Assembly: GCA_017499595.2 (NCBI GenBank)
Contig: CM038999.1
Location: forward strand, 558,001 to 622,000
DNA from: Psilocybe cubensis
Lineage: Eukaryota
Reading direction: 5' to 3'
DNA: 64,000 nt
Numbering within the stretch: the stretch's first letter is position 1; each line of letters starts with the position of its first letter. Positions 11,168 through 48,483 of the stretch are shown here, piece after piece. The notes beneath the pieces were generated by a model. The model ran no database searches, was not told the origin of the DNA, and saw nothing but the letters and a program-made list of their open reading frames with translations. The position numbers and the translations under genes are program-made.

Positions 11168-12510
11168 ATGGTCATGCTCCACCACTTCCTGTTGAGCATC
11201 GTGCTTCACTCGGTTTACGTCTCCGCTGCTCCCACCGCACTCGTTATTCCATTTGTAACTCTCGGAAGCGCGACGTTCGTTGGAGAGACCTCTGGGACGG
11301 TACAGCGGTTCTTGGGTATTCTGTTCGCCCAACCTCCGTAAATGTTTTTAATATTTCAATTAGACTCTTCCGTTGACTATATATATATATTTGTTTCGCA
11401 GTGTCGGAAACCTTAGGTACCACTTACCCCAGCCTATCACATACATGAATGGATCCTACGACGCAAAGAAATACGGGCCCTCTTGTGGTCAACAATCTGT
11501 CGGATTGCCTCTCCTCTCCGGCCTGACAGCGGAAGCAGTCAACTATGTGATCAATTCAATTTTTGGTCAAGTCTTCCCGACGATGAAGATTGTGAGTCAT
11601 GGTGACATGTCCTCGAATCTTTTCCTTATGCTCGACGATTCTAGGCCTCACTGTGAACGTCGTGAAACCAGCTACTGCTACTCCTGGATCCAAGCTCCCT
11701 GTCGTTGTGGTAAGTATCTTTTCGATATGTACTACAATTTATTGCTGACCCAGACATTTTAGTGGATATTTGGCGGTAAGTCAATTCATCAACACCTCTA
11801 CTATATACTTTTCAACCTCCTGTGACAGGTGGTTTCGAACTCGGAAGTACTTCTATGTATGATGGAGCATTAATCGTCAAAAAGTCCCAAGATCTTGGAC
11901 AACCTATCATCTACGTCAGCATGAATTACAAGTGCTTATACCGGTATATCTGTCATAAACACGTTCATGTTTTAATCCCTTCGATTAGGTTAACTGGGAT
12001 CGACTTCCTTGCAAGTAAAGAGGCGAAAAAAGCTGGTGTGGGCAACCTTGGTCTTCAAGATCGTACGTTTGATTATGTTGCTAACGAAGTATGTTAGCAC
12101 AATGTATACAGAACGTGAGGCTCTGCGGTGGATCCAAAAGTGCATCACTCAATTTGGTGGTGATCCCACCAAAGTTTCCATGTAGGCTTGAATTTGTTAT
12201 TCCTGTTATATTTCGCATGACTCATTTACGATATTTTTCCAGTTGGGGTGAATCCGCTGGCCCTATATCTGTTGCTCTGCAGATGGTGGCGAATGATGGC
12301 AACACTGAGGGTCTTTTCAGAGGCGGGTTCATGCAATCAGGAGCTACCATTCCAGTTGGTGATATCACAAACGGCCAGAAGTACTACGATGCCATGGTTA
12401 AAGAAACTGGTTGCACTGGCGCATCAGATACTCTCGATTGCTTGAGAACCATCCCATATACCAAATTAAAGGCTGTCATCCACAAATCTCCTGGTATTTT
12501 TGCTTACCAG
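11168..12510 (+). pseudogene. Secreted type-B carboxylesterase/lipase (COesterase), 3'-truncated and frameshifted
   Basis: Signal peptide, FLGILFAQPP, EDC-LTVNV, WIFGGGF, GNLGLQD, FGGDP, WGESAG, MQSG. There is a 1-nt loss at FP-(D)DEDC (~11580). Homology stops after IFAYQ|gtatgt, so the catalytic Glu/His half is missing. Confidence 0.85.
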
Positions 12511-14866
12511 GTATGTGTGTCAGTGAAGATCGACTCGGCAGTTGGCGGTATTGAATTACCAGCCAAAACGCGCTCATTTTCAATCTCAGTTCAACTCAGA
12601 TAGGCACCATCGTTGTAGTAAGCATGCTTCTTACGTCGGCTAACGTCGGATAACCTTATTCCATGTCGTTCTATAAATTAAAAAGAGAATTGAGCTGAGA
12701 AAGCCAGTTCATGTTTGGTTGAAGAAGTCGTTGGTATTTCCGTCCCGACCAGTGTCACCATGGTTTATGTCCGTAAGACAGCATAGATTCCACTGGTTCG
12801 GAAGCTGGTAACCGTATAATCCGATACCATGATGGTACTCAAAGCGCACCGACACTCTCCTCTACCCGCTAAAACTGATGTGCACAACTTAACCAATCCA
12901 CTCCGCTGCATGCCTGGTATCTAAACCGATCGATCACTCTTGGTCCCTTCTACCACCGCGTTCTGTTGCAAATTCAGCATACTCGCCAACACATACACGA
13001 CATTACGTGTTGTTCCACTCCGTCCTATATGTTTTCATCCGTCGCAACGCGCACATCATCAACTTAGACCATTCTGCTTTCCGTCCCTGTAATATACTCA
13101 CCGCGGTAACCAGACCCCCCTTCCCGTTCACTGTGACATGCATGGTACAGCGCTCTATGCGGCCGTTATATCTGTAGCTGTTTCTATCCAGTACGACATC
13201 GGACAACCATCTCGGTCACATTCTATCGAACGTATTGTTTTACCTCTCTCCCTCTCCCATTCACATGGTGTGATGTATTGGGTGCCCGATACCATCGGTA
13301 CTGCTCCCTCTGACCACCCTGACACACAAGACATGTCCTCTGTCGTCTCACAACATACGCATATGGTGTTGTGTGTTGTTCTTCTCGTCGCTACAATTGC
13401 ATCTCTCCATAACAATACACAAGGCATTTCGCGTCACTCTCCATACTGCTCCACTCTCTACCTACAATAGTGCACGCAGTACTGTATCTCATGTTCTTTG
13501 CCGCTCCCGCTGTACTCTCCGTCCTTTATATTGATAGGAGAGTGTTTGTGCTATGTCCTTTCCATCACCTACCCACTTGCTCATAACAACACGGAGGGAA
13601 TATTCATCACAAACCACACATACACCCCTCTCCACTCGCAACGACGCACACGGCGTTGCATGTTACTCCACCCGCCGTCGCCGCTTCTCCCATTTCCAAC
13701 ATTGGCATAGGGATATATGTGTCATGCACTCCATCGCGAACAACATGTAGAGCACTGATCTCTGATCTGTATCGCTCTCCGTCCCAACAATATGTCTAGA
13801 CGACATACACAGGGCTTTGCGTTTTCATGTTGTGTCATATGTCCCTGCCGCTCTGTACCCACCACCACTACATTCTACGTGACACGTACAGCACTCTACA
13901 GAATACGTGTTTTTCTCTCTATCCTATTGCTCGTGCCCTTTCTTGTCACAATCATCCGCTGCTATATTCTCCTCCTACAACGATAAACAGGACATCACCC
14001 CTTCTCCTCCTCTGGTACTACCCGTTGTCAGTCCACAATAACGTGAATGACGTTGTATGTTATGTTGTCTACCATCTCCTTTGCTATCTCCATCCTGGGT
14101 ATTGACGTGGAGGGTGTTTGTGTTGCACTCTTGGTATCATCTGTCCCAGCTTCTGTCGTTATCAATGTACGGTACTCGACGTGGGTCCATCTGTCGTCGC
14201 CGTTTCTTCTATGACCACACAACAGAGGGAATGTGTGCACACACACTCTTCACTTTCTCCGGTCTCAATTCACTTCACAACAGCTCGTAGGCTCTGTAGT
14301 GGATTGGCTTTGTATATCCACAAAAAGTATTGCTTGCCATCTACAGTTGTAGTTATTAGTGAAAATCGTCTGTATGTATTTGCGATGCTTTTGACAATAT
14401 GGAAATTGATATTTATTCCTTTGAACTACCGCTGTAACCTTGGTGAAAGAAATCACATTAACTTCGTTGTCTCAAAATATCTCTGATTTAAATGAAGTAT
14501 CTATCCATATAGTGGTGAGAAGACAGAACCCGTTATAGTATAAAAGCTTAACCAACATTAAAATAAAGTAGAATTTTTGTTATATTACCGGTGTAATATT
14601 TCTTTCGATCTTGACATCTGACGTTGTGATAGGTACGAATTCGTATAAATAATTCTACACGGTTCAAACCAGACTTAAAGCGTGTTATACACAATGGTGT
14701 ATAATTCTATGGTCACGTCCCATTCTCCCTTAATCCGTTCAGTCTATACCCTCTCTATCCGTGGGCCTAATCTATATACGGTGGTGGTATTTCTATCAAC
14801 AGATGACGCTCGCGTTTATAATCGAAGAGAGAAATAGATCGTGACTAAATTCGTGAGTACACGGGT

Positions 14867-20916: not shown

Positions 20917-20999
20917 ATGGCGCTCACCAAGTCTATGATCGACAGACCCACTCACTTTACATTACTGTCCTCGAGTTCCGAAAAGGTCTTACAGTCTCC

Positions 21000-21040
<41 letters not shown>

Positions 21041-22254
21041 CTTCTGTATTGCTTCTTCTCCTCTCTTTTCTCCTTTTTTATTTTTGTTTTATTTATTCAA
21101 TTCGCCATCTAAATCTCTGTTAAAATTCTAGACTTGGGATGTATATAAGCGAATGTCGAGCTCCTTCTGGACTGTAGACACCATCGACCTCGAGACTTTG
21201 ACAGAAAGTTGGGATCTTGAACTCGACCACAACCAGCGCCATATATTCGGTCTTGCATTGATGGTGTTATTACCACGTCGTTTGGGCAGGTCACCGATAG
21301 TTGATAGTATATATCAATCCCTTGACCTGTTTGAAGCGCGATGTGCTATGGACGTTCGTACTATGAAGTCTGTCTTATCCATGTACTCTGTTTTCTTATG
21401 AACTGACGATTGAACTATTCAGTGAAAATATATACCATGGTGTTATATCTGAACTCATGTCTGGTTTGATCACCGACTATGCCGAGATGGACCGTATATC
21501 CTCTGCCATACACGGGTCTACGTATTATGCTCAGATGCAAGACTGGGTAATGACATGGGCATCTAAAACGTCCGCGAATGCTAACGGTTCCCTCGTGGAT
21601 CGGGTGCTTGCTCTGGCCGTCAGCGCTGGTATCTTCAACTCTTCCGCTTACACTATACTGTCGAGCTCGGACGCATTGGTCGAGGTACCGGAACTTAGTC
21701 ATGCGATAACGATGATACAATCATCTAACCACTTATTCCTGGACTTTGTCTGTCACTTATTTTCCGGGTTTTCCAAGAAGCCGTGCCAGAGCCATGTCAT
21801 GCAGATCGTTCTTCGTGCCGTTGACATCGAGAAACAAATGGTTTTAGGTATGTGACATGTCCATGTTCACATTTTAAGTTGATGGTAACATTCCATACAT
21901 ACAGAGCTCTTCCCGTTGGATATTATAGGGCTAACCGACACTGAAATGTGGTGGTACATCGAGTTTACGGCCGATTGTCTGTTATGTCATTTGGGTTTTA
22001 CGCCTTATTTCGAGATTGATAATCCAGTAAAGTGTCTTTTTTTATTTCTATGTTTTATGTTTTATTTTTTTGGTCGAGTGTGTCATTCACTGAGTCGCTA
22101 TGCACAGTTCCTCTTTGCACCTCGTAGAGTCGGCCCACCCGAGCGCGTCGCTGGTCATAACTATGAACTTTTTAGGTTCAAGTGTATGTGCCACTCTTTT
22201 GATGCAAACGGCAACATGACGACCTTCTATGGCATGTACCCATATACCCATTGA
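20917..22254 (+). CDS. RNR2: Highly divergent ribonucleotide reductase small-subunit (R2) homolog, predicted catalytically dead, ORF intact (5 exons, ~330 aa)
   Basis: Exons 20917-20985, 21132-21367, 21423-21847, 21905-22026 and 22108-22254. WDVYKRMSSSFWTVDTIDL, FEARC, ENIY, DRVLALAVSAGIF, DFVCHLF, AVDIEKQ and IGL..M..YIEFTADCLLCHLG..NP align with the R2 motifs WxMYKKAxASFWTAEEVDL, EARC, ENIH, ERLVAFAAVEGIF and YIEFVADRLL. Confidence 0.85.
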
Positions 22255-22666
22255 GTTTGATTTTAGATATTCTGTTTGTATTATATCATTAAGAATGAAG
22301 TGAATTATTTATTCCCCTTTTCATATTTTTATGGTGTTAATTATTTAACATTGGCTTTTATATAGATATCCCAAGGATGGATAGTTAGCTGTATTTACAG
22401 TGTACACTGATTGTTGATACCATTGTTACATTAACGAGAAAACTTGTTCGTTGTCGGGTCTTGTATGTAGTAGTATTCAATTGACCATGGCATGTTTTTT
22501 TTTCGCTATACACACCCACAACCAAGATATCTGTTTCAATCGTAGATTTATAACCTTTTTCAGGACTATGGTGAATAGTTGAGTATTGAGTGGCATGGGA
22601 AGGCCAGTCATATAAAGCACTGCTAATTGTTGTCCTACCGCTGCTAAACTGTTCAATGACCGGTAG

Positions 22667-23012
22667 CACGCCGGACAAAAATGCTGACCAGTTAGCCTGG
22701 GTGTTGTCCTGACCAGTGACGTGACTAGTACCGTGACCAATTACATAGCGTCACATATATGTTGTCACGCTGATTCATTATTAGTAGACTCGACAGTAAA
22801 TGGCAAATTACTTGATTGTCTTGCGTTAGAACTCAGTTCGGAGTAGGAAGAAGTATTAAACAATCAAGTAATATGTTATTTACTGTTGAGCCTACTAATA
22901 ATGACTTAGCGTGACAACATATGTGTGACACTATGTAATTGGCCACCGTACTAGTCACGTCACTGGTCAGGACAACACCCAGGCTAACTGGTCAGCATTT
23001 TTGTCCGGCGTG
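22667..23012. mobile_element. MITE (346 bp), CAC..GTG ends, ~155-bp TIRs, 3-bp TSD (CACTA/CMC-like)
   Basis: CACGCCGGACAAAAATGCTGACCAGTTAGCC.. mirrors ..GGCTAACTGGTCAGCATTTTTGTCCGGCGTG. TAG flanks both sides (22664-22666 and 23013-23015). Confidence 0.9.
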
Positions 23013-24179
23013 TAGCACGAATCCACGATGCCAATCAGGTGACGTGTTTTAAATTGTTCTTGTTCGGACTCAACCTCACTCTGGCTGGCCATATTAGGGT
23101 CGACCACCGACGACGGAGATGACACAGAAAGTGACGGTCAGGCAATGTAAGGGGCCCATATAGAGAGGAGGCCCTCCTGGTACGTTACACGGATTCTGAC
23201 TCAAGTTTCTAAGCTATTTCTATGTATCCCAGCTTTACTATGTTGAACAGCAAGTCGTGTCGCTGTCCATCCAATTGATAACAACCAGCAGCATCGCACT
23301 GCCGGTCGTCGTCACACCCGCTACCGCTCCGTCCCTATACAACCGTCTCCTCTCCACTTCCTTCCACGACCAGCAGCACCATCCTGTTGGTCTGTATCCC
23401 CGACGCCCCTTCCTCCCTCATCAACCAACAGCTCCAGATGCTAGTTAATGTCCCCGGCGCACTTGACAATGCCTGTCTCCTCCGTCTATGTCCCGTCGCT
23501 CTAGAACTATTCCAATCGTTGTCCCAGCACTTCCGGGCTTCAACATGTATGTTATACCTGACATATCCTCTCTTTGCTTTCACTGAACGCGCTACAGCAG
23601 CATGTCTCTTGGTGTCAATGGTTCGGGGTGTCCTCCAGGAATCACCTAATACATTCTCAGCCGTTCATTCATACATTGTCTTTTTCATATGAAACTCAAA
23701 TTTGACACGCATTTACTAGTCGACCGCATTGCTATCACTGTTACCTTCAGTCAGTTCTTTTCCTAAGCCGGCCCAAGAATACCCATCAACCAAAACCGCA
23801 AGAACTATCCGTTGACTTTGGGAGTCTAGTAAGTACATTTTTTTGTATTGGTTACAACTCGACCTTTATTGTCCAGTGTCCCATCTGGCTTCACATTTGG
23901 CACTGCCACTGTCAACCATATTGTTTTCTTTCTTATTTAACTCTGGATAGTATTTCTCATCAAAACCTTATCATAGCATGGCTATTACTAACTCGAAAAA
24001 TCCGTTACTGCTGCCCAATCTATCTATTACTGTGAGTTTTCACCTTTTACGGCTCGCGGTTAATACGCAGTCATGTCCTTTAGACTCATCCAACTACCCA
24101 TATCTCTTCATATCTACAACTCCCTGCGCTATCGATGTACTCCGGTTACAGCGCGAACCAGTCTTTGACCAACATCCCT

Positions 24180-24720
24180 TTTATAGCTGATGGCGGATCC
24201 AATCACAGTGCGCGATTCCCAGACCTCTCGAGCCCTCCTGTCACAAATCAGCAGCAGCAACAGTATGGTGGCTAGGGTTCTGCAGTGATGAGCCCCGTCA
24301 CCCCGCAGCAACAGTAACAGGGCATGTACCAGCAGTACCCACAACAGCAGCAACAGCAACAGCCCCAAATGACCATGGGATACGTACCGCAGCAGTAGAT
24401 GGGCGGTTGTATCTCGATGAGAGGCAGCGGTGCCGGATATCTCTCTGGGTACAGCTCTACCCATCACATACAGGCAGCGGCGGTGGCATACCCTTTCAGT
24501 CGTTAAGTAGCTTTGGCCAACAGTTCGCAGCGCACGTCTGCGGCAGCAGCTACAGCTACCTCCAAGGCCAGTAGTAGCAGGGCAACCCGAGCGCCTACAA
24601 ACCCGTCCAGTAGCAGCTACAACAACCCGGGATACGTCATGCAGTTCGACTCGTACTCATCCATCGGGTAGCTAATCAATCGCAGCAGCAACAGTAGTTA
24701 CAGTGGTAAGCGCAACGAGG
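24180..24720 (+). pseudogene. Decayed CAG/CAA-rich (Gln-rich) coding remnant
   Basis: Many cagcagcaacag runs interrupted by tag/tga, and no long open frame. Confidence 0.35.
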
Positions 24721-25914
24721 ATGGATGGTGGGGTCAGCTTGGGTCAGAGCTACGACAGTAGCGCCGGTGGTGTTGTACCCTTCCAACGTTCGGGTACGGT
24801 GTCTCTGCGTCGGGTGAACCGCACTCGCGCAATTATATCCGTACACACAAGGTGGAGATCGGGCCTGGGACAATTTCGCGTGGAAGCAACTCCTCAGCGC
24901 GTTCGAGACGCTCATGAAGGCTTAGGAGACGCGCAAGGGCGAGCTGAGCGCGCGCGTCCATGAGATGAGCGCGCAGATGAATGTGGGGATGGTGTATGGC
25001 CCGTATTGTGTCACTCTTAACTCTAAATTCTATTCATTCCTCGATCCAAGGAGTTGTAACTCAAGGTATTTATCATACATGTCTCCGTATAGGACATTGC
25101 TCTAAACATTTTTCTAGCTACTACGCATTCTGATCTCACTGGTACCGTCCGCATTAAGTTCCGGACTCGTTTTTGTCCCGCCAAACCAATGCCAATCTTT
25201 GCATATTTTGATTCCAGGTACCAACTACACCTACCGTGATGCTTTCAGCCTCGTTTTCACAGTCATGTCTCCATATGGAGTCTTGTCTGTCCTCAACATC
25301 CAGAGTTACCTGCGCGTCAGCAACTCGAAGAACACTAAGGGAAGCGGTTACATCACCACCGACTATGTGAGTTTTTGTTTTGCACTAAAAGTTCGTAAAG
25401 CTGACCTTTTTTCAGATCGACACTGCTCTTGCTACGGTATGTTTCTGGTGTTTAATATTAATAACCCATTCTAACAATTGCAACTACAGATTTTCAACTT
25501 CCAATTGCAGAAGTGTTAAAAAGTCACTGAGTTGCGTCCGAGAACATTCTCTTCTTGCAATTTGACAATCACCACACAGACAGGACGTGACGTCTAGTGA
25601 ATGATCGGCCGATGAAGGGAGTCAGTGGATATAGCACACCGCGTTTATCGATTAAACATTAGTTTTTATTGACAAGTTCTTATGTTCATCAGAATATCTT
25701 ACGTTGTCATGGAACGTCAAAGGTGATGACCATTTTATATTTGTCATGGACATTGCTGATCGTAATCTTATTGACATATTTTGATGATCAGGCTGTTTCG
25801 GGCTGTTCAAGGCCTAGTAACTATCGACTATTTGATAATAATGTATGTGAATTAGATTTCTGTGTGTCTACGTTTCGTTGTATAAAAGACCGGAGATTGA
25901 TTTATTGTTGATTT

Positions 25915-27493
25915 ATGTCTGGAACTGATAAAGATATCCCCGTCAATACTGAAAGAAGAGTTAGCACACGGACCCTCCATGATGGTCAGATGCAACGATG
26001 TTTTTTGTCTACTACTGTGTATCGCACTGGTTGTAGAGGTACAGTTTTTGTGTCGGATGGATCCGATACGACCCAGTACTGATTTTTACCCGTGATATAG
26101 TCTCTCGTTTACCGTTTTTAAAATCGTTTGTGTCTTCAAATATTTCGGACACTTTTAACGGTGTCGATTACCGGTGCGGATCGTTTGATAGACGCTCTGT
26201 TTGCTCGTATTCAAATGGTATGTAACAGGACTTATACTGCGCTGCTTATCAATGCGTATAACTCGCATTTGTGTGTAGTCTCTAAAGCTGGTAGTGGGTC
26301 ATTGCTTGCGATAGGCACCTTCAGCGGAGCCGTCAAAATACTTGATACGCGGCGGAAGTGTTTATCGGAATGTGGTAGTTGTCGATATTCTTGATCGTTG
26401 CAATTTAACACTGATCTCGAATTTGCGCTTTTCTGTTTATTTCGTGTAGACCCTAGAGGACGGTTGGTCACGCAACATTCGTCCTACATCAGCGATCTAA
26501 AGTGGAAGGGAGATGATAAGTCGTTGTTAGTCGGAACATGTACTCATACAAAATATACGGGCGACTATCACCCCGGCGGGTTTGTTGTGACTGTCGAAGA
26601 GCGGTTTATAACGCATCGGTTACACGGACACTGCGAACCTGTCAAGTGTGTTTTGTGGCATCCCACGAACGAATCACTTGTATACACTGGAGATAGAGAA
26701 GGCACTATATCTTTGTGGGACTTGCGAGTGGAACCTTCGGTTCGTTTATCTTCGGGATTGACAGGTATCAGACCCGTCGCAACCATTTCTCATGCACACA
26801 AGGCAGTCAAAGCTTCTCTGGAGCCCACTATCACGGGACTCGTACCGCATGACAATGTTACTCATGGTGTAATAAGTAGTTGTTCTGCTAATGGGTGAGT
26901 GTTGTAACATGTGTTAGGAAGCACGACTCACTTTCGCTGTTAGTTTTCTCCGGTTGTGGGATTTCAGATCGACTAGCCAGTATCTATTACGCTCTAACTT
27001 GGACCCAGGCTTGTATAACTATCACCGGTCTAGGGGTATCGTATCGCTCGTGATGGGTATCGGTGAATCAGAAGGCATTGTATTTGGATTTGGTATCGAC
27101 GCAAAGATATACGTGTACTGTGCACGGGATTTAAATTTATGTGCGAACCCGATATCCTTTGATGGTTTGGGGGGGACCACTTCGTTTTACGCGAAAATGT
27201 CGGTCTCGCCATGCGGTCGATGGTTAGTACACGGCATGGGGTCTCGAGACGGGGATGCTTTCATTTATAGTGTCGCGCGCGACACTCGGTTAGATGTCAG
27301 TCCAGCGCATGCTGTGAGATTGAGAGGGGGGTCATCAAGCTCATACGGAGTGGATTGGTCTTACAACTCTTTGGCCGTATGTGCGGAAGCTGGAGTGGTT
27401 CGTATATGGCGAGCCAACCCTGCGAAGCGGAGAGAATGTGAGATACAGCCCGACTTCAACAGAGAAAAATGGAGTTGGGCCACATCTATATGA
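25915..27493 (+). CDS. cdt2: Divergent Cdt2/DTL (DCAF2)-like WD40 protein, CRL4 substrate-receptor family (5 exons, apparently intact)
   Basis: TATAAAA at 25881. LKSFVSSN.SD, CSYS, LLAIGT..GAVKILDT, HSSYISDLKW, LHGHCEPVKCVLWHP..TGDREGTISLWDLR, ISHAH, SSCSANG..LWDFR, RSRGIVSL, SFYAKMSVSPCGRWL and GVDWS..VRIWR match my recollection of fungal Cdt2. Confidence 0.8.
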
Positions 27494-28676: not shown

Positions 28677-30887
28677 GACGAAACTGTAGAGTAAGGATAT
28701 AGGTTTAACGAAAATTACGGATTAGACGCTCACAAAGATATACCAAGTCACAGGGTTAGCTATTCACGCGCCAGACGCACGAGAATCCGAGAAAAAAAAA
28801 CCCAATAAACACAGGATAAAATGCATTTAAGGCAAGTATCTACTGTATCATGTTCAACCGCGTCCACGCGTTGAGTCTTAGTGTGACTTAGGATGTGTAG
28901 AACATTCTGTAAGCGCTCAAGAAAACTAGAACATTTGTAAATCATAAGGCAGCCCCTTATTTACCGGGCACTTATAACCACAGCAGGAAGCTACATCGAG
29001 CCACGAAGTTGCGAATTCGACTAAGTATTGATTCCATAACCCAGTCCAAGTAAAAGAGAAGTTAAATTCAATGGAATACAAGGAAATCACTTCATAACAT
29101 CTTTGATGGCCGTGATACTTTCCTAAAATGGTAACTAATCTCCACCAACTTCGCGTGTGTGCGTTTTTGTGTGTGCCCGCGTGACACTCATTTTTTTCAT
29201 CTCAAAGATACCCCGTGGTGAATTATCTTTAGCTACATATCATTTTTGACCGAGTTTGAGATAGCCAGTCTGTTTCTGATGTATTCCGAAGGTGTAGGGA
29301 TTTGTTTTGTAAGATCCCGACTACGAGACCGTTCGCATTGTAACTGGCAACGCCTTTTATTCAGTAATGTACACCACGTTACCAGTCCCGCGAACTTGAA
29401 TCAATCTTTTTTCTGTCCTTTGGACATGTATTTGGTGAGCGAGTGAAAGATGCAAACTTTCTGGGGAACATAGTAACTTACTAAACTATACACCACTTTG
29501 CTGGAGTTGCAGTCTATTTAAATGAAAAAATCTGTATAACAATTCAATGCTTACAACGGTATAGAAAGATAGGTAGCGTATTATATTCCTGGCAGTACTT
29601 AGTACACCTTATCAGTATGCTGAAATATGCACGCATATAACACGCTACCTCAATCCCGCTGCACGTATTTCAATGACATGCACACGCAAGATTTGACAAT
29701 TTGCACGCAAATTTACCGAGTACCGTTTCTATGGAAAGCCGGAAGAGCGAGGTGCCCAGACACAAACCAAACATCGTCCGGCAGGTATGCCGAGTGATCG
29801 ATAGGCAACACACAATCCCGCTATGCCTGAACGACTTCCAACACCCTGCACCGAGTCCACTATACAAATAAGTATATTCTGTTACATACTTAGGTATGTT
29901 ATTTTTTGCCCTCTATCATTTAGTTCTACCCTGTAAGAAAGGCAATAAATTCAATATTGCTGTATGACTAAGATGACCACGGTATTTAGGCCTTGGCTAG
30001 GGTTCTCCGTTCATAGGAGTGGGTGTCCCAAACGGGAAATGACCAAAAAATGGAGGAAAAAGGGAAGAGATTCTCACTTCCTTGTTTTTGTTTAATATGT
30101 GGAGAGAAAGACTATAAATTACTTGAGAATATATATACGTCATTCCAAACACAAAAGTTATGAGTTACCGTGCGAAACAATACGTAAAATTTCAAAAATT
30201 TTGCGCTAACGCGCGTCCGAAAAGTGTTTTATTCAATTTTACCCCGGACTTCGTCTGTACTCGGAATTAAGCAGATATTTTGCACATGGGTAATGCTTTC
30301 TTTATGTATCATATGGAATATTACTTAAAGGGTCTTAATAAAGAGCTGTAATAACCCACAACCCAGTCGTCGAGCATTATTGAATGGAGCCGTGCGCAGA
30401 TGTGGCTGTGCTTCGGCACATCGGCTGGCAGATAACATTAAGGGTGGCAGATAACATCTACTCAAATTCTACTTTTTCTACTCTTCTTACTCAAAATGTA
30501 AAGATACTAGTATATGTAAATACCTTATATATACCTGAATGTATTTTTTGAACCTACATACCCTATGTTTGAAAGCAAAAAACTCTCAAAAGAAAGTGCT
30601 CGGATTCTGCCGGTGGCTAGCGCATTGATGATACGAAAGAAAGTCAACTAGGACAGGTAAGCGACTTTTAAAAAGAGCCAGAGTGCTTACATACACAAAC
30701 CAGACTTTGGTATGCGCTCAGCGCAGCGGGCGGTTGGTCACGGGCAATGGATGTGATGGATATGAGAGAAGAAAAAAAGGACGTGGCTAGGGCAGGTGAG
30801 AGAGCACGGTGAGTGGTGTAAGCTCGACCTCGTTGAAACCTTGAGATGAGGATGAGAGTTTTGATGTGAGCGAAAACCAATGGTGGG

Positions 30888-31307
30888 TGTGACGATCCAG
30901 ATTGTTTCCCACACCCCTAACTATCTTCCTTTTATCTTATCTATAATTTTCTTTTCTGTGGACTTTACCTTAGCTCCGTCCACCCAATACACGCAGTCCT
31001 TTAGCTCATTTTCTTTATTCTTTATTCCTATTTCTTCATTTTATTCCCCTTAAAACTGACTTGTACTCCACCTTCATGTATTTCCCAATTAACCCTCTTG
31101 TATCTCTTTCTTTGTATACTTCCTTTGAACACCTTATTTTTACAGTATAAATGCAGCTATGTAGTAGCTAGAGAACCGGTGTCAAATACAGAGATACAGA
31201 GTAATTTAATTTGTCTATTCGACCTCTAAGCTTCATTTTGAATATTTTCCGTGTGCCGCTACGGAACCGCTGTTACTTTCGGAGTCACATTTCTCAATAA
31301 CGTCACA
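30888..31307 (+). mobile_element. Solo LTR (420 bp)
   Basis: Termini TGTGACG...CGTCACA, 5-bp TSD GTGGG/GCGGG (one transition), internal TATAAAT at ~31146. Confidence 0.75.
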
Positions 31308-31379
31308 GCGGGAGCAGGAAAAACTTGTAACTGATGCAAAACCCTTTCTTACAGGCCATAACTAAATGATAGAGGGCAA

Positions 31380-32700
31380 AAGATAACTCGAAAAGTCGGC
31401 TTCGACGCAATTACCTGCCATGCCAATAACCAGTAAAATTTTGCGTGATATTGTGTACTAATGTAATAATTATGTGTGTATCCAAATTACCTACCATGGG
31501 CGTGAATGTGTCAAATTTGATGTGTTTCTGGTATTTGACGTCTACGGATGTCGATGAAGGGAATATCGGGACGATGTCTTTTTCCAGGCCGTCTATTTGT
31601 ATGCCACTGCCTTTGACATATACATACACTGCTTTGCAGTATCGTCGCAATTTATCATCGACTTCGTATTTAATATCTTTGACTATTCCTTCTGTTCCAT
31701 TGACTATCTTATCATCAAATGCTATGTTTTCAGTTATCATTACTTTCATACCAATGAAAAGTGGCAGTTTTCCTAACGCATCGTTTGTTTTTGCTGAAGG
31801 GAGTCTCCATAATTTCTGTTGAAAATCATTTGTAACTCTTTTCTTGTAACTCTCGTCTCGTAAATAGTAGATGTGAGGTGATACGTTCAATCTTGATGAG
31901 TGATACTTGATTAACTTGACATTTAGAATGTCCCGGACTGCTTTGGTGCCTACAATGATAGGGGCATCCGAAAATAATTTTAGAGTCTTTGGATTTGAAA
32001 CTTGATTTTGAATTAGTCTTGCGTATATATACTGGTAATCTGCCGAAATAATATAAAATCAATGAAAGATAAACATTCGGCAAAGGCTCACTCGAAGTCT
32101 ACCAAGGAAATCAGCGTACTCTGCGTCTTTCGAGTGTCTCTGATTTATAACCAACTGTATTACTGTTTGTACTTGTCGCCATAAAAATGTTCCGCTGAGT
32201 TGTGAAGCACCGGCAACGTTGCGAGCTTCTGCAAAAGAAGGATTCTTGACTAGTTCATTTGCATACAATGGTTTTTGTAGCGGTGGTTTCAGTTGTGCGC
32301 AGTCCCATGAATATTATATTGATTCCTCCGAATGGCTTGTCACTATTGACATTGTCATCTCCTTTTCCTTGTCTAATTCTGATCGACATTTCGCTTAGAA
32401 ATTTTGCGCTGATCATTGAAATCTCGTTTACAATCAATGTTTTGATGTACTTCCATATTTGAATCAGTTTTACTTTGTTGGGTTTCGATTGTCCGTGGTT
32501 TGCTGCCGATGCTATCAGTGAATGTAGCGTTTGCCCTCCGATTAGTACAGCTGCTATTCCGGTTGGTGCTCCTAATAATAGTTCATGTCGCCGCTTTAAA
32601 CGGTCAAATAACAGAACCAGACATTTTATTAAGTGACATTTACCCGTTCCCCTACCCCTGCAATATGTATCAACAATTGATCTATTAAGGGATAGATTAC
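31380..32700 (-). pseudogene. PIF1: Pif1-family helicase (Helitron-type) pseudogene
   Basis: Frameshifted Walker A (AGVG-GTGK), GAPTGIAAVLIGGQTLH, IVNEISMIS, PFGGINIIFMG, LVINQRHSKD..YADFLGRLR and LPLFIGMKVMITENI..IVNGTEG. Multiple frameshifts, truncated, and no Rep/HUH domain seen. Confidence 0.85.
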
Positions 32701-33452
32701 GAACATTCTATCAGTGTTTCTGGATCTGTATCCTCCAGGTTAAAAGGTCCATTATCAGGATCGCCAATTCTTATTTTGCTGTTCTCCGCCACAATGTTGG
32801 GCCCCAGCCTAGAAACCCCGAAAGACTTCTCCGTATTTGCGGCGAGTAGTGGCATGGAAAACGGGCATGTTCTGGCGAGTGAGCCTTTCACATACACTAT
32901 ATGACAAAACAAACTGAAATTGCGAAATGACATGTACCACACGAATCAGGTAAAAAGCAAACAGACCCAGCGATACTTTATAATTGTCCGCCATGTAAAC
33001 GTTTCTATCTAAGTTCTGTCTCGTGATTTATCACGGGAAGTTTCGAAAATACCTCCCTTATGTCAGCAAACATATGATAGGCCCCTAGGGTTTCTCACGA
33101 ATTTGACCGTACCGCAGGCCAAACTTTGTCCTGATCTCGCGGATTTGAGGCCAGAATTGCAGAGTATTTGTCCAGGAAACTCTTTACTATCGTATGTACG
33201 TCTAAAGGTTGTTTATCCATCCTGTTTGGTATGTTACAACTTGGCACTACCAAATAAAGAACTGGGAGTCGATTCTAAACGTTGAAAGTCGGGTTGCTTT
33301 CAATTCGTATTCAACTTGTACTTCGATTCGGTTCCTCCACCCTTAGTTCTGACTCCACCATGCGTAACCGTGATAATAACAATACCATTGTTGTAGTATT
33401 ATGTTTCACGACACAATAACCAACTAAAACGAATCGACTCTGGTTAAAATGG

Positions 33453-34730
33453 TCAGATCGTATACGAAATACAATTAGTTTCAAAACAAGACATTTTCAA
33501 GAAAGATCTAAGGTCTGAGTGCCAAATTGGCCGTCCAAAATAGTCTCTTCTACAGTCGGGGGTGTATGCCAACGCCATCTCTTCAACAAAAAAGCCGGCC
33601 TTTAGTTCACCAAGTACGATAGGGTTAAGATCATCATCGACCTGGGGAACACGTTAACAAAAATCTTCGAATCTCATGGAAGAATAAATACTTTGTTACT
33701 CGTACCGTACATTGGCTTGTATCCTAAGGATACAATAAGGGCATCTGTTTTGTATTCTATATACCGGTTCATATCGCTTTCTAGAATGTCTACATTGAGC
33801 ATATTGAGTAAAGCTAAAGCATTCAACATTATACTCAGACACTGATGACAGCACACAACACATACCATTACCGAAACCCTTTTCAATGTTTACAATAACC
33901 CCAACAAATTCGTAAACAAAACCGGCCAATGGACGTCTCTTTAGGTGGTAAAAAAGTAGCGACACAAAATCTATGTGACATTCCCGATCGTTTAAAATTC
34001 GAGTGTAAGTAGACATCATAGCCGGCAGATAATCCTTGGAAGAAAACCATTGTAGAATTCGAGACAGAGAAATACCAAAGACTCCTTGAATAAAGATGAC
34101 GATGAGCAACCGCTCCGAAAAAGGATATACCAAAGGCATCAACCACATGTCCACAAATTTCTTCTTGTGATGCAATAGTCCCCAATCATCAGTACAACCT
34201 TCCATTCGGAGCCTGGTAAGGCCATGCGTAATTTTGGCCATCGCCTCTTTATGAACGTTCTCGCTATTAAAACATAATGAACGACTGAGGAAAAAGAACA
34301 CAAATCATAATGAGAGCCACTCACTTAACCGACTAGAAACCGAAAAAAAACAATGCGCTTCGGGTACTGTGATTTCCTTGGAAAGTATATCCAATATTCT
34401 CGTGTGCATTCCATGGGAAGCTATAGAGTTCTTGAAGAAAACAACCCCAACATATCGCTGTGCGGGTGACAAGCACTGCTTCCACTCTTTGTAATCTGAT
34501 GATAAACCAGTGTATTGAGCTTCCCATAGTGTCGTAATGGCATGTTTATAAGCTCTCCAAATCTGCAAAGGCAAGAAAAGGAATATCACTCAATCATGAA
34601 GGGAAATAAATAAATTATAGCACATACGTACCGTTGTATAGCGGATGGGAAATATAACAAACCGCCGGGGGTCCTTGACGAGTAACCACTCCTATGCATC
34701 AAGAACGAGGATTTTTGCAGAAGAGTACAT
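33453..34730 (-). pseudogene. RNR2: Second divergent R2 (RNR small subunit) homolog, with premature stops and a frameshift
   Basis: MYSS..DA*EWLLVKDPRRFVIFPIRY|IWRAYKHAITTLW..EAHCFFGF*..|ENVHKEAM..FSERL..IQGVF..NDRECHIDF..HLKRRP..YIEYKTDALIVSLG..KAGFF. TAG at 34692 and 34333, and an extra T in the T-run near 34345. Confidence 0.85.
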
Positions 34731-39153: not shown

Positions 39154-40775
39154 TCAAGTTTTACTTTCCTTTCGAATATCCATCGTCATCCCCTTTTCTT
39201 TTAATTGTTGAATATGTGTTCTGATATTGTATCTGCTCCTGTATTTGTTGAAATCGTTGTTGGTACCGCAGTCCCTGTTGATGAATGTAGTAATAAATTT
39301 GGTTATCGGCTGTATATCTGTTATCGGGATTGGACTAGCGATGTCAGGGAATTGTAGATGGTTTTTGGTTGTTTTCCAGTCGTGACGACGATACATCATG
39401 TCTACCACGTCTGTTGGATTGAACGCGATCAGAGCATCAGTACATGTAAAATTTTGAAGGTTTTGTAACAGGTATGTCGTAAATGAACATCCCAGCGGAG
39501 CGAGCGCTTTTATGAGTAGATCACTGACAATGAAATCAGGACGTTGTAGATTGAATGTGATCAGGGATGTCAACGGCATTAGAATGACAATCAACTCGAA
39601 CTCTGTGATGTTGGCGTTGCTGAGCGTGAACTCCCGGAGCGTTTTGATACCTTTGGCACGGTTTTCCAAATTTACCAGGGCTATGCACCAAGTAGAATCT
39701 CCAGGTGAGTCCAGTTCTATAGCAAGGCTAATCAATGCCGGGGTTGTGATAGACGCCAGAATTATTGCTAGACTTGATGAATCGCCAGTTATTTGAAGGC
39801 ACGTCAACCATTGTAAATCGATATCCGGTTTTTTCGCGTGTACATCAGTAGACCTGAAAATTCCTTTCGATATAAGTCGAATACGAAGGGTTCTGAGATG
39901 CGTTAGGAGATGGATGTCCTCCATCACTTCATTGACGGTAAACACTCCCCATTCAAACTCGTGGATGTTTGCCCAGTAAATTCCTAATAAATCTATGCTC
40001 GTGCCCGGCGATAACGATAGTTTTTGTAACGATTTTGCATGGGAAAAATATAGTTGGCTGGATACGTGGATATTGCTGGGCCATAATTGTATAAACTCGT
40101 CACAATAGAATGATGCTAGGCGATCGCTTGATTGTAGAAGAAGGTCGTAAAATGTAATGGGGAGTTTTAATTGCACGCGGTCTTTCGAGTAAATGTGGAT
40201 ATCCAGAGGCAGTATCGTGCCAGACCGGAGCAACCAGTCACGTAATAGACACTCCATCGTATTGAATGTTTTGGGCGATAAAGGTACCGACACCTTCGTC
40301 CAAAATAAAGGGATACCGTGGATTGTTCTGCGCCATTTTGCACAAATAGACGACAGATAGATATTACCCGGTTTTCGATATCCAGGTGGTAAATGCGAAT
40401 AATCGTCCATTGCAATCTCCATGATTAAGTTCGTCACATCATCATTGAGTGTGTATAAGGGTTTGCCGGTATTACGACTGTAATACGGTACATCCTCGGA
40501 CTGTTATGAGAAACACGATAATCAGCTCTTGTGTATGTCGATATTCTTCAAATTTTAATGGACAATACATATTCCAATAGTAAACTAACTCAAATGCAAA
40601 TTAAAAGAATACATACCTCGTACGTTAGCGATGTGGTTTTGCTTGCTACGGTTATATACTTGGATATGTATGCTGATGGCCGTTGGTGTTCTTGTTCCTG
40701 GTTAAATTGACCATATTCATCTTTGATGTGATATGACGAGAATTTTGAAATGGGTTTGCTAGCAGGGTTATCCAT
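39154..40775 (-). CDS. F-box/LRR-like protein (2 exons), paralog of 46939-48483
   Basis: Exon 1 MDNPASK..TYE|gtatgt. Exon 2 LYTLNDDVTNLIMEIA..LSSICAKWRRTIHGIPLFWTKV is a typical agaric F-box motif within a 427-aa open frame. Confidence 0.8.
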
Positions 40776-46938: not shown

Positions 46939-48483
46939 TTAAAACCCGTTGTCTTCTGGAAGGTCGATAAAAATCATATCAATTGTTATGCCCATATTCT
47001 TCAATGACTGCGCTTTCTTATCCCACTCCTTTGTGTGGCTCGGGGACAGATAACCGTTAAGGGGGGACCATTCTTTACAGTCGTGACTAACCCTGAACAA
47101 GGTGATAGGACGGACATCCGTGATCTTGTACTCTTGAGCGTTGGGAGCGAAAGCCCTGTTCTCCCAAAGTGCGAGTCGATGAACCAAAGTCGCGAACAAA
47201 GCGTTTGGTGTGAAGGATATTATAGCCCTGTAACATTCAAAGTCTTCGAGGCACGGGAGCAGACATCTCCCTCCGAATGCGAATGAAGGATCCAGAGAGG
47301 ACACAAAGTAATCACTGAGGAGAAACTGTGGGCGATAAAATTTAAGGACTCGCATTGAGCATAGCCCTCTGAGGATCTCAACGACGTCATGTTCGCTGGT
47401 ATCGATATCCGAAAACGTGCAGTGGGTCAGAGACTGGAACCAAGACGATCTTATCTTCATGTCTAATAAGGAATTAACCCAACATGAATCTCCGTCTGGA
47501 ACTAGAGTAATGCATAGGATCGTTATGTTAGGCGCAGTAATCACATTGAGGACAGTCTGTAGATTCGTGGAATCGCCTTCGACAGCGAAGATTCCGAGAT
47601 GGTTTAATATACAAGATTTTGCTTTGCCGAATTTTCGTTGTTCGTTATCGTCGAAGACCAGTTCCATGTCGTAGATATCCCGGAGCTCCCCGAGGAACAC
47701 TTCGACATCCTTTACTGTGGTTTGGTACCAAGCAAGATCGCGCAGATGTTTCCAGTTGAACGTGGGGGTAGTAATGGAAGAATTTGAAATGTATACATAA
47801 CGGAGATTTTTGGCCGGTCTGAAGTCGATATGATCGTGCAGATACAGGTCGAATGAGACGGTATGGAGAAGCGGGAATGGATCCGAGGATTGTGCTGTGG
47901 AAAAGAAAGACGACCAGATAGAACCAACGTCGTCACAAGAAAACTTTTCCCATTGCCTATGGGTACCAAGAATAAGTGATTTGAAAGTGGAAGGTAAATC
48001 AACGGCGACATCTGTGGTAGAGATACTGATGTCCAGAGAAATGTTCGTTGAAGCGCATTGAATCCAGTCCGCGAATAGCTCTTCCATTATCCTTAAGTTT
48101 TTTACCGATAACCTGAGTGTGATAAATCCCCAGTACATTGGACGTGCTCGTACGAAGTTTCTCCACTGGCTGCATACAGCGCCAATGGTAATCGGAGGAG
48201 GGGTATTAATCCCATCGGTACCCGCCCCACTGTCTGCATAAAACATACGGAGGATAATGTCCACTACATCAGTATCCAGGTCATTGAAGGTGATTTGCAT
48301 GCGGTTGTTTTGTTCTGAATGGTGGCGAAGACGACGGAAGAGATTTCGAGAGTGGTATCGTTTTTTTGTTGACAAACGAAATACAGCATGGTCCACGATG
48401 GAATAGAAAAATCTTCGGCCTGGAACCATAGAACGAAAATGACGCCCTGATCGATGAAGACGAAGCGAGTTAACGGCAGGCAT
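46939..48483 (-). CDS. F-box/LRR-like protein (514-aa ORF, start may be M at 48300)
   Basis: FNDLDTDVVDIIL..PPITIGAVCSQWRNFVRARPMYWGFI. It shares GDS..L..IT.P..GDS.W and RP.F..SD with 39154-40437. Confidence 0.8.
   Translation of the reverse strand: MPAVNSLRLHRSGRHFRSMVPGRRFFYSIVDHAVFRLSTKKRYHSRNLFRRLRHHSEQNNRMQITFNDLDTDVVDIILRMFYADSGAGTDGINTPPPITIGAVCSQWRNFVRARPMYWGFITLRLSVKNLRIMEELFADWIQCASTNISLDISISTTDVAVDLPSTFKSLILGTHRQWEKFSCDDVGSIWSSFFSTAQSSDPFPLLHTVSFDLYLHDHIDFRPAKNLRYVYISNSSITTPTFNWKHLRDLAWYQTTVKDVEVFLGELRDIYDMELVFDDNEQRKFGKAKSCILNHLGIFAVEGDSTNLQTVLNVITAPNITILCITLVPDGDSCWVNSLLDMKIRSSWFQSLTHCTFSDIDTSEHDVVEILRGLCSMRVLKFYRPQFLLSDYFVSSLDPSFAFGGRCLLPCLEDFECYRAIISFTPNALFATLVHRLALWENRAFAPNAQEYKITDVRPITLFRVSHDCKEWSPLNGYLSPSHTKEWDKKAQSLKNMGITIDMIFIDLPEDNGF

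What the first reader, a model, noticed from the sequence alone, without database searches (positions are those of the whole stretch)
20917..22254. Intact R2 pseudoenzyme with nearly all di-iron ligands and the radical tyrosine lost
Against canonical R2: the FFAASD Asp is absent, ENIHSETY becomes ENIYHGVI (His and radical Tyr lost), VEGIFF becomes SAGIFN, and RDEGxH becomes SSNHLF. The ORF and five-exon structure still appear intact, and the C-terminal tail is novel. Established: yeast Rnr4 is an iron-ligand-deficient R2 partner. Inference: an independently evolved Rnr4-like chaperone, or a dominant-negative dNTP regulator.
Basis: partly seen in the sequence, partly recalled or inferred. Interest (0 to 1): 0.8.

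Follow-up and report, generated by a model that had tools for sequence, protein, structure and literature searches.

The report
Dead ribonucleotide-reductase R2 paralogue in Psilocybe
This mushroom gene encodes an intact protein with the fold of the ribonucleotide reductase small subunit, but it has lost the iron site, the radical tyrosine and the tail that docks to the large subunit, so it is a non-catalytic relative of a kind already known from yeast, with no known role.

Summary
A GT-AG spliced gene at 20917-22388 (+) encodes an R2 homologue (PF00268, 126.9 bits against 402.5 for a canonical R2). It keeps 1 of 6 metal ligands (E108). It has lost the radical Tyr (I115), the Asp next to the fifth ligand, and the C-terminal segment and end motif that most family members carry.

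A public protein named 'Ribonucleoside-diphosphate reductase subunit M2 [Psilocybe cubensis]' (321 aa) is reproduced exactly by a six-exon model.

The predicted fold is R2-like (pLDDT 85, TM 0.83-0.88 to human RRM2 and p53R2). A homodimer model passes its controls, but that pass may come from memory of solved R2 dimers.

The gene is not a yeast Rnr4 orthologue and is more degenerate than Rnr4. It belongs to a very fast-evolving group. A second copy in the window (33497-34730, -) is a pseudogene that shares all four intron positions. A third, intact copy lies on another contig. No orthologue above about 30% identity was found.

Expression and function are untested. Dead R2 paralogues recur widely: 22 of 118 aligned relatives lack the canonical seven-residue pattern. 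Interest is moderate.

The parts
20917..21000 (+). Gene A exon 1 (public six-exon model).
   Evidence: The six-exon join translates exactly to P0001. The ATG sits in the context gccATGg.
21002..21040 (+). Run of 39 T at the start of intron 1.
   Evidence: Read. DNA contigs of runs X1 and X2 break at about 20994-21052.
21132..21367 (+). Gene A exon 2. It holds the W41 region and the lost Asp ligand (R78). Donor GTCTGT.
   Evidence: PF00268 profile 13-84, E 1.7e-5. Boundaries. One strain difference at 21231, A>G, gives N62D.
21423..21847 (+). Gene A exon 3. It holds ENIYHGVI, SAGIFN and QSSNHLF, the former metal-site helices.
   Evidence: PF00268 profile 92-236, E 3.1e-13. PDB phmmer gives human RRM2B at 3e-9.
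21905..22026 (+). Gene A exon 4 (122 nt, the same length as exon 4 of copy B).
   Evidence: PF00268 profile 241-281, E 2.5e-5. Exon lengths.
22108..22183 (+). Gene A exon 5 in the public model.
   Evidence: No Pfam hit. pLDDT below 50.
22366..22388 (+). Gene A exon 6 of the public model (..YIPRMDS, then stop).
   Evidence: YIP aligns with YIP of paralogue C.
33497..34730 (-). Copy B, a second degenerate R2-like gene that is now a pseudogene. Exons: 34730-34632, 34562-34330, 34263-33866, 33813-33692, 33641-33497.
   Evidence: PF00268 E 1.3e-11 on its main exon. That exon is 75% identical to P0152. It has an in-frame TAG at codon 13 where P0152 has Gln, and its joined length is 997 nt (not a multiple of 3), with the frame changing in exon 5. 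Intron phases 0, 2, 1, 0 are the same as in gene A.

Best explanation
**What it is.** Gene A is a real, intact, intron-bearing fungal gene. The matching public protein is named as from Psilocybe cubensis. It encodes a catalytically dead protein with the fold of the class Ia ribonucleotide reductase small subunit (R2, beta).
- It cannot build the di-iron/tyrosyl cofactor. Five of six ligands, the radical Tyr and the Asp beside the fifth ligand are gone.
- It lacks the ..GKTNFFEK.. segment and the C-terminal acidic-Phe end. From textbook knowledge, that end is how R2 docks on R1.

**Its family.** It is one member of a small group of degenerate R2 paralogues that evolves about 3-4 times faster than canonical R2.
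- A is intact.
- B, 11 kb away, is pseudogenised.
- C lies on another contig and is intact.
- All descend from one intron-containing ancestor.

**How it most likely works (inferred, not shown).** It folds without metal into an R2-type helical bundle and still pairs through the R2 dimer interface, with itself or with another R2-type chain. It has neither a radical nor a docking tail. Any effect on dNTP synthesis would therefore have to come from binding, titrating or stabilising the canonical beta chain, not from acting on R1.

**Confidence by step.** I put the identity claims at about 0.9, 'maintained by selection as a folded protein' at about 0.65, and the beta-binding step at about 0.3.
For: **Homology and fold.**
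- PF00268 scores 126.9 bits against a cut-off of 33.6.
- The AF2 model has pLDDT 85.2 and pTM 0.85.
- The Foldseek top hits are all R2: human RRM2 3vpn_A (E 1.6e-13, TMt 0.83), p53R2 (TMt 0.85-0.88) and yeast Rnr2 and Rnr4.
- ESMFold2 without an alignment still gives chain pLDDT 75-76.

**Loss of catalytic residues.**
- Of 54 columns that are at least 85% conserved among 118 relatives, A keeps 27 and differs at 27. The 27 that differ include D78R, H111Y, Y115I, E175A, D208S, E209N and H212F.
- 96 of the 118 relatives have the canonical pattern DEHYEEH.

**Tail.**
- 73 of 118 relatives end in F, and 61 of 118 end in [DEN]F. A ends ..YIPRMDS.

**Coding capacity kept.**
- 321 codons over six exons are open, with P about 1e-7 by the window's stop frequency.
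- This is despite only 28-30% identity to canonical R2.
- DNA contigs of two other runs (one study) cover 21053-22662 with one difference (N62D) and no gap.

**Family.**
- A and C are 23% identical, E 8e-17.
- They pair in the tree with SH-aLRT 95 and end branches of 3.41 and 3.59 against a median of 0.93.
- A and B share four of four intron positions and phases, and both have a 122-nt exon 4.

**Dimer.**
- The homodimer model scores ipSAE 0.61 against a best of 3 controls of 0.00.
- The three runs agree in at least 66% of contacts, and the partner pLDDT is at least 74.
- The mark was reached by 21 of 30 microbial proteins solved as pairs of one chain, and by 0 of 23 solved as single chains.
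- On eukaryotes it was reached by 17 of 29 such pairs, but by only 1 of the 7 with no older solved relative.
- The interface falls on residues 21-44 and 99-120.
Against: - No orthologue is visible.
  - The word-index searches returned only the protein itself: 1 of 433 and 1 of 3181 candidates.
  - The exhaustive HMMER search found nothing better than 29% identity, E 7.1e-30.
  - The metagenome scan found none: 395 pattern matches, 0 confirmed.
  - Purifying selection therefore cannot be measured.
- Its sister copy B has decayed, and the surroundings are rich in repeats and poor in recognisable genes. That fits birth-and-death turnover of dispensable duplicates.
- The predicted interface is no better conserved than the rest of the core: 8 of 23 against 72 of 243.
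- R2 dimers are solved structures, so the dimer pass may come from memory and shows likeness only.
- The pairing of A with C in the tree joins the two longest branches and may be long-branch attraction.
- The one strain difference seen in the gene changes the amino acid.
Confidence: 0.5

Rival explanations
1. Rnr4-type obligate partner. A forms a heterodimer with the canonical beta chain and is needed to fold it or to load its iron cofactor, as yeast beta' does.
For: - It has the same kind of loss, and the same His-to-Tyr change in the ENIH motif. A reads ENIY and yeast Rnr4 reads ENIY.
- The R2 fold and an R2-type dimer are predicted.
- Passages read in PMC3824934 and PMC9431586 state that Rnr4 lacks iron-binding residues and may act as a chaperone.
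Against: - It is not an Rnr4 orthologue.
- Rnr4 keeps 3 of 6 ligands, the Tyr and the C-terminal ..FDDDF end (my reading). A keeps 1 of 6 ligands and none of the rest.
- An essential partner would be expected to be conserved in related fungi, yet no orthologue was found.
- Its branch is about four times the median length.
- The interface is not preferentially conserved.
Confidence: 0.12
2. Drifting relic. A is a dispensable duplicate that no longer has a function and simply has not yet acquired a disabling mutation. The public gene model is only a prediction.
For: - Copy B of the same group is already broken by a TAG and a frameshift.
- The neighbourhood is repeat-rich. There is a polymorphic 349-bp foldback insertion about 275 bp beyond the stop of the public model, a PIF1-helicase fragment, and multi-copy stretches at 29.4-31.8 kb.
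- No orthologue was detected.
- Half of the family's conserved columns are changed.
Against: - Divergence down to 28-30% identity without one stop or frameshift in 321 codons, and with five GT..AG introns kept, is very unlikely without selection on the frame for most of that time (P about 1e-7).
- The structural core still folds confidently, even without an alignment.
- A recent loss of function cannot be excluded.
Confidence: 0.25
3. New job outside RNR. The metal-free R2 bundle has been recruited as a scaffold or binding protein unrelated to dNTP synthesis, for example in a fast-evolving conflict or recognition system.
For: - Every RNR-specific feature is lost, including the docking tail.
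- Evolution is very fast and there are several divergent copies in one genome.
- The C-terminus is new and predicted disordered.
Against: No positive evidence for any other partner or pathway. The neighbouring ORFs give no functional link: 5 of the 125 ORFs scanned have a Pfam hit, and none of those hits is related.
Confidence: 0.12
4. Metal-free but still radical-bearing R2, in the manner of bacterial class Ie, using another tyrosine such as Y111.
For: - Class Ie beta structures are among the fold matches (7mms, 7mmq).
- From memory, class Ie has lost metal ligands yet is active.
- A has a Tyr at the first His position.
Against: - The radical-position Tyr is Ile and the neighbouring Asp is lost.
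- There is no docking tail, so a radical could not reach R1.
- From memory, class Ie needs NrdI, a prokaryotic partner.
Confidence: 0.01

Closest known systems
Saccharomyces cerevisiae Rnr4 (beta', PDB 1jk0_B and 1sms)
   Same: It is a eukaryotic R2 paralogue with the R2 fold and an incomplete metal site, and it cannot make the radical itself. It has the same His-to-Tyr change in the ENIH motif.
   Different: - It is not orthologous: A against the Rnr4 orthologue P0095 is 23% identical, and they fall in separate places in the tree.
- Rnr4 keeps 3 of 6 ligands, the Tyr, the FFEKKVSDYQ segment and the FDDDF end (my reading). A keeps 1 of 6 ligands and lacks the rest.
- Rnr4 is 46% identical to a canonical R2, while A is 28% identical.
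Canonical eukaryotic class Ia R2 (human RRM2 and p53R2, mouse R2, yeast Rnr2)
   Same: These are the best sequence and fold matches. The match to PF00268 covers the whole domain, profile positions 12-281.
   Different: - 28-30% identity, and 126.9 against 402.5 Pfam bits.
- The ligands, the radical Tyr and the C-terminal end are lost.
- There is no long N-terminal extension.
P0152, a second public P. cubensis protein ('Ribonucleoside-diphosphate reductase small chain', 340 aa), and its pseudogene relative B in this window
   Same: - Same genome by the sources' names.
- Also degenerate, with the pattern SEHMQRH at the seven sites, and also without an F end.
- Pairs with A in the tree.
- B shares all four of A's intron positions.
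   Different: Only 23% identical to A. It keeps 3 of 6 ligands and the N-terminal RRFVLFPIRY motif.
Other degenerate R2 paralogues (apicomplexan non-canonical R2_e2, PMC3824934; unnamed hits P0003, P0025, P0036, P0037, P0045, P0058, P0067, P0089, P0102, P0103, P0117)
   Same: - They show that loss of R2 ligands recurs. 22 of 118 aligned relatives lack the canonical pattern.
- P0067 has Asn and Phe at the fifth and sixth ligand positions, as A has, and groups with A and C at SH-aLRT 94.
   Different: - Each is closer to canonical R2 (31-46%) than to A (23-29%).
- By my reading of the sequences printed, most keep the ..D[AE]DF end.
- Their sources are unnamed.

Membership tests
Ribonucleotide reductase small chain (PF00268, ferritin-like R2), homology | Significant full-length match to the family profile | tested here: met
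   P0001 scores 126.9 bits, E 1.3e-36, cut-off 33.6, profile positions 12-281 of 281. The exon-wise hits are colinear.
Ribonucleotide reductase small chain (PF00268, ferritin-like R2), homology | R2 helical-bundle fold | tested here: met
   AF2 model pLDDT 85.2. The Foldseek top hits are all R2, with TMt 0.83-0.88 to human RRM2 and p53R2. This is a prediction, not a solved structure.
Functional class Ia RNR beta subunit | Six carboxylate and histidine metal ligands (D, E, H, E, E, H) | tested here: not met
   A reads R78, E108, Y111, A175, N209 and F212, so 1 of 6 is kept. 96 of 118 relatives have the full pattern.
Functional class Ia RNR beta subunit | Radical-bearing tyrosine | tested here: not met
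   I115 stands where 109 of 117 relatives have Tyr.
Functional class Ia RNR beta subunit | C-terminal end that docks on R1 (acidic residue then Phe; its role is from textbook knowledge) | tested here: not met
73 of 118 relatives end in F.
Functional class Ia RNR beta subunit | Dimer through the R2 interface | tested here: inconclusive
   The homodimer model scores 0.61 against a best control of 0.00 and passes the mark. Like complexes are solved, so the pass may be from memory.
Yeast Rnr4-type beta' partner | Orthology with Saccharomycete Rnr4 | tested here: not met
   phmmer gives Rnr4 1.8e-21 against canonical R2 at 3.3e-34. A is 23% identical to the Rnr4 orthologue P0095 and is not grouped with it.
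Yeast Rnr4-type beta' partner | Heterodimer with the canonical beta chain of the same organism | not testable with these tools
   No whole genome is held for the window, so the canonical R2 of this organism was not available.
Yeast Rnr4-type beta' partner | Retained C-terminal docking end and the preceding FFEK..Y segment | tested here: not met
   Both are present in Rnr4 (alignment) and absent in A.

The most novel reading that the evidence does not exclude
A, C and the unnamed relative P0067 mark an undescribed, deeply diverged and very fast-evolving clade of metal-free R2-fold proteins in mushroom-forming fungi. A and C also lack the C-terminal Phe end, while P0067 ends in NF. The clade is kept under selection for a role that no longer involves docking to R1. 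That role could be titration of the canonical beta chain (a built-in brake on dNTP supply) or something outside nucleotide metabolism altogether.
Probability: 0.3. Interest if true: 0.6.

Novelty: new variant of a known kind. Interest (0 to 1): 0.4.

Why it matters
Non-catalytic R2 paralogues are known, and yeast Rnr4 is the model case. They show how a radical enzyme can depend on, or be controlled by, a dead copy of itself.

This one goes further than Rnr4. The metal site, the radical residue and the R1-docking end are all gone, yet the fold and reading frame are kept, and the copy belongs to a multi-copy, fast-evolving group.

If it is expressed and binds the canonical subunit, it would be a natural dominant-negative or buffering subunit of RNR in a basidiomycete. 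If it is not, it is a clean example of how far an enzyme fold can drift.

There is also a practical point. The public name 'Ribonucleoside-diphosphate reductase subunit M2' overstates what this protein can do.

Tried and rejected
- **RNA evidence.** No RNA holder is listed for the stretch. The two runs guessed to be RNA (X4, X5) gave contigs only at about 22.7-25.5 kb and about 30.0 kb, most at 90-95% likeness, and none over gene A or copy B. This says nothing about expression.
- **Whole genome.** None is held for this window. I could not look for the canonical R2, count further copies or compare intron positions with the canonical gene.
- **Metagenome scan.** The scan with exon 3 gave 395 pattern matches and 0 confirmed relatives.
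- **ESM Atlas.** For P0001 and P0152 it returned only generic PF00268 clusters (scores 0.94 and 0.96), with no closer kin.
- **Earlier findings of this scan.** There was nothing for this genome or this sequence. Two bacterial cases of ligand-poor R2-like paralogues turned up by words.
- **Literature.**
  - 0 papers hold 'Psilocybe cubensis' with 'ribonucleotide reductase'.
  - 0 papers hold 'ribonucleotide reductase', 'Agaricomycetes' and 'paralog'.
  - The listings showed nothing on such fungal paralogues.
  - The papers on the Rnr2-Rnr4 structure and on the discovery of RNR4 are not held.
- **dN/dS among copies.** Rejected, because A and C are 23% identical and therefore saturated, and no DNA of C was available.
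- **Viral or horizontal origin.** Rejected. A shares four intron positions with B, and its best matches are eukaryotic R2.
- **Interface conservation.** As a sign of a kept partnership with canonical beta, it showed no excess: 8 of 23 against 72 of 243.
Full report
**What is there**

The stretch 20917-22254 reads as a eukaryotic gene with short introns.

Translated exon by exon, exons 2, 3 and 4 match Pfam PF00268 (ribonucleotide reductase small chain) colinearly. The profile positions are 13-84, 92-236 and 241-281, with E 1.7e-5, 3.1e-13 and 2.5e-5. Exons 1 and 5 match nothing. Exon 3 alone finds human RRM2B at 3e-9 among PDB sequences.

A search of the large protein collection with exon 3 returned one protein, P0001. 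It is 100% identical to the exon, 321 aa long, and named by NCBI/UniRef 'Ribonucleoside-diphosphate reductase subunit M2 [Psilocybe cubensis]' (1 hit among 433 candidates).

A six-exon join of the window reproduces P0001 exactly. The exons are 20917-21000, 21132-21367, 21423-21847, 21905-22026, 22108-22183 and 22366-22388.

- Its exon 1 donor lies 15 nt further on (GTTTTT at 21001).
- It has a fifth intron (22184-22365, GTATGT..ATATAG) before a last exon of 7 codons and the stop.

Both differences find some support in the paralogue P0152. VLQSP aligns with FVLFP, and ..KYIP aligns with ..AYIP. Only cDNA can decide between the models.

**The catalytic residues**

I aligned P0001 with 118 relatives from the exhaustive HMMER search plus P0152 (alignment A2). 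I dropped 30 of the 149 non-self hits: 10 fused, intein-bearing or otherwise odd entries within the range used, and all hits after P0128.

54 columns are at least 85% conserved in the family. A keeps 27 of them and differs at 27.
- The differing columns include five of the six metal ligands (D to R78, H to Y111, E to A175, E to N209, H to F212), the radical tyrosine (Y to I115) and the Asp beside the fifth ligand (D to S208).
- E108 and W41 are kept.
- 96 of the 118 relatives carry the full pattern DEHYEEH.
- The family's ..GKTNFFEK.. segment is missing.
- The protein ends ..YIPRMDS, whereas 73 of 118 relatives end in Phe.

The ligand identities follow the yeast numbering quoted in PMC3824934 (passages read).

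**Fold and pairing**

With alignment A2, AlphaFold2 gives mean pLDDT 85.2 and pTM 0.85. Confidence is low only at residues 1-11 and 298-321.

Foldseek against the PDB lists R2 proteins at the top:
- human RRM2 3vpn_A, E 1.6e-13, TMt 0.83
- p53R2, TMt 0.85-0.88
- yeast Rnr2, 1jk0_A and 1smq_C
- yeast Rnr4, 1sms_A, E 2.1e-10

A two-copy complex prediction gave ipSAE 0.61 (three runs: 0.63, 0.61, 0.61) against a best of three controls of 0.00. The runs agree in at least 66% of contacts and the partner pLDDT is at least 74.

The mark was reached by 21 of 30 microbial proteins solved as pairs of one chain and by 0 of 23 solved as single chains. On eukaryotes it was reached by 17 of 29 such pairs, but by only 1 of the 7 with no older solved relative. 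Since R2 dimers are solved, the pass may be from memory. It shows likeness and does not show that this copy binds.

The interface falls on residues 21-44 and 99-120. These residues match the family majority at 8 of 23 positions, against 72 of 243 for the rest of the core. There is thus no sign of a specially preserved interface.

**Relatives and copies**

- The word-index searches found only the protein itself (1 of 3181 candidates in the latter).
- The exhaustive HMMER search of 1.84 billion representatives gave 1301 hits at E up to 1e-3, but only the query itself at E up to 1e-30. The best other hit is a canonical R2 at 29% identity, E 7.1e-30.
- A metagenome scan found no relative.
- Against PDB sequences, A is nearer to canonical R2 (mouse 3.3e-34, yeast Rnr2 2.4e-30) than to yeast Rnr4 (1.8e-21).
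- P0095 is an Rnr4 orthologue (7e-132 to 1jk0_B). It is 23% identical to A and groups elsewhere in the tree.
- By my reading of the alignment, Rnr4 keeps Asp, Glu and Glu of the ligands, has Tyr, Arg and Tyr at the other three positions, keeps the Tyr at the radical position, and ends ..FDDDF. A is considerably more degenerate. The ENIY motif is shared.

The window holds a second R2-like locus on the minus strand (PF00268 E 1.3e-11).
- Its main exon is 75% identical to another public P. cubensis protein, P0152 (340 aa, 'small chain', longest contig of a different length).
- Guided by P0152, the window copy (B) has five exons: 34730-34632, 34562-34330, 34263-33866, 33813-33692 and 33641-33497.
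- It has an in-frame TAG at codon 13 where P0152 has Gln. Its joined length is 997 nt, and the frame changes in exon 5.
- B is therefore a pseudogene in this strain.

P0152 (C) is itself degenerate, with SEHMQRH at the seven sites, and lacks the Phe end. A and C are 23% identical.

They pair in a tree of 83 sequences with SH-aLRT 95. Their end branches are 3.41 and 3.59 changes per column against a median of 0.93, and the program flags the pairing as a meeting of long branches.

Independent of the tree, A and B have their four shared introns at the same places and phases (0, 2, 1, 0), and exon 4 is exactly 122 nt in both. That argues for one intron-bearing ancestor and against a viral or retroposed origin.

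An unnamed hit, P0067 (279 aa, apparently lacking one exon), has Asn and Phe at the last two ligand positions, as A has. It joins A and C at SH-aLRT 94. It is a lead for relatives in other organisms, nothing more.

**Is it maintained?**

Arguments for:
- With the window's six-frame stop frequency (0.0486 per codon), 321 open codons have P about 1e-7. A sequence that drifted to 28-30% identity without constraint would not stay open or keep five GT..AG introns.
- The fold is still confidently predicted, also by a single-sequence model (chain pLDDT 75-76).
- DNA contigs of two other runs from one study cover 21053-22662 with a single difference (21231 A>G, N62D) and no gap.

Arguments against:
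- There are no orthologues with which to measure selection.
- A sister copy has decayed.
- The setting is repeat-rich and gene-poor. Only 5 of the 125 ORFs of 85 aa or more that I scanned have a Pfam hit. I left out 8 of 133 ORFs, those overlapping A and B.
- Multi-copy depth was seen at 22.8-23.4, 29.4-31.8 and 35.4-36.0 kb.

**How it most likely works**

Shown:
- It is an R2 homologue.
- It lacks the residues for metal binding and the radical, and lacks the family's C-terminal end.
- Its reading frame is intact.
- It belongs to a divergent multi-copy group.

Inferred:
- It folds metal-free and still pairs like an R2.
- Having no docking end, it cannot act on R1 directly, so any role in dNTP supply must go through binding the canonical beta chain. 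That could be titration or buffering, or less likely Rnr4-like assistance.

I put about 0.3 on that step. The rivals are a drifting relic (0.25), an Rnr4-type obligate partner (0.12), a role outside RNR (0.12) and a class Ie-like radical protein (0.01).

**Comparison and novelty**

Dead R2 paralogues are an established kind.
- Yeast Rnr4 and the apicomplexan non-canonical R2 are examples (passages read in PMC3824934, and in PMC9431586).
- In my own alignment, 22 of 118 relatives lack the canonical pattern. Each degenerate hit I compared is closer to a canonical R2 (31-46%) than to A, which points to many independent losses.
- This case is at the extreme end. It keeps 1 of 6 ligands. Among the 112 hits with all seven sites filled, only P0103 also keeps just 1 of 6.
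- A and C are the two most diverged from canonical R2 of those compared, at 28%.

I found no paper on it. 0 papers hold 'Psilocybe cubensis' with 'ribonucleotide reductase'. 0 papers hold 'ribonucleotide reductase', 'Agaricomycetes' and 'paralog'.

I rate it a new variant of a known kind, of moderate interest. The public name 'subunit M2' is misleading.

Noticed in passing
window 22663-23019: A 349-bp insertion is present in the window but skipped by the DNA contigs of runs X1 and X2 (joint from 22662 to 23012). It is flanked by an 8-bp direct repeat (GTAGCACG) and is built of two 153-nt arms that are 93% complementary, with 40 nt between them. It looks like a polymorphic foldback MITE, about 275 bp beyond the stop of gene A in the public model. 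Depth there is several times that of the flanks, so it is multi-copy.
   Followed up: partly
window 32258-32707 (-), and 29419-31822: An ORF fragment with a PIF1-like helicase domain (PF05970, E 1e-13) lies about 800 bp downstream of pseudogene B. Next to it is a stretch with 3- to 9-fold contig depth and several rearranged joints in other strains. This may be a Helitron-type remnant. I did not test whether it has anything to do with the spread of the R2-like copies.
   Followed up: no
window 21002-21040: A run of 39 T lies at the 5' end of intron 1 of gene A. Short-read contigs of two other runs break there.
   Followed up: no
window 39157-40503, 46942-48501, 51457-52383, 53284-54555 (all -): Four long open frames (449, 520, 309 and 424 aa) have no Pfam match at E up to 1e-3. 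They may be lineage-specific genes or transposon proteins.
   Followed up: no
window 23504-25545: Contigs of the two runs guessed to be RNA lie here only in pieces, at about 90-95% likeness, with joints that skip 61, 61, 150 and 151 nt. They look like a spliced transcript of a related gene or strain. An ORF at 25118-25471 has a weak DUF4360 hit (E 1.8e-5, below Pfam's cut-off).
   Followed up: no
protein P0067 (unnamed source): This is a 279-aa degenerate R2 that has the same Asn and Phe at the last two ligand positions as gene A. It groups with A and C in the tree (SH-aLRT 94, long branches). It may be a relative in another organism.
   Followed up: partly
window 12085-12600 (+), 26395-27490 (+), 62459-63019 (+): These are the only other recognisable domains in the window: a carboxylesterase fragment, WD40 repeats and a weak protein-kinase fragment.
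   Followed up: no
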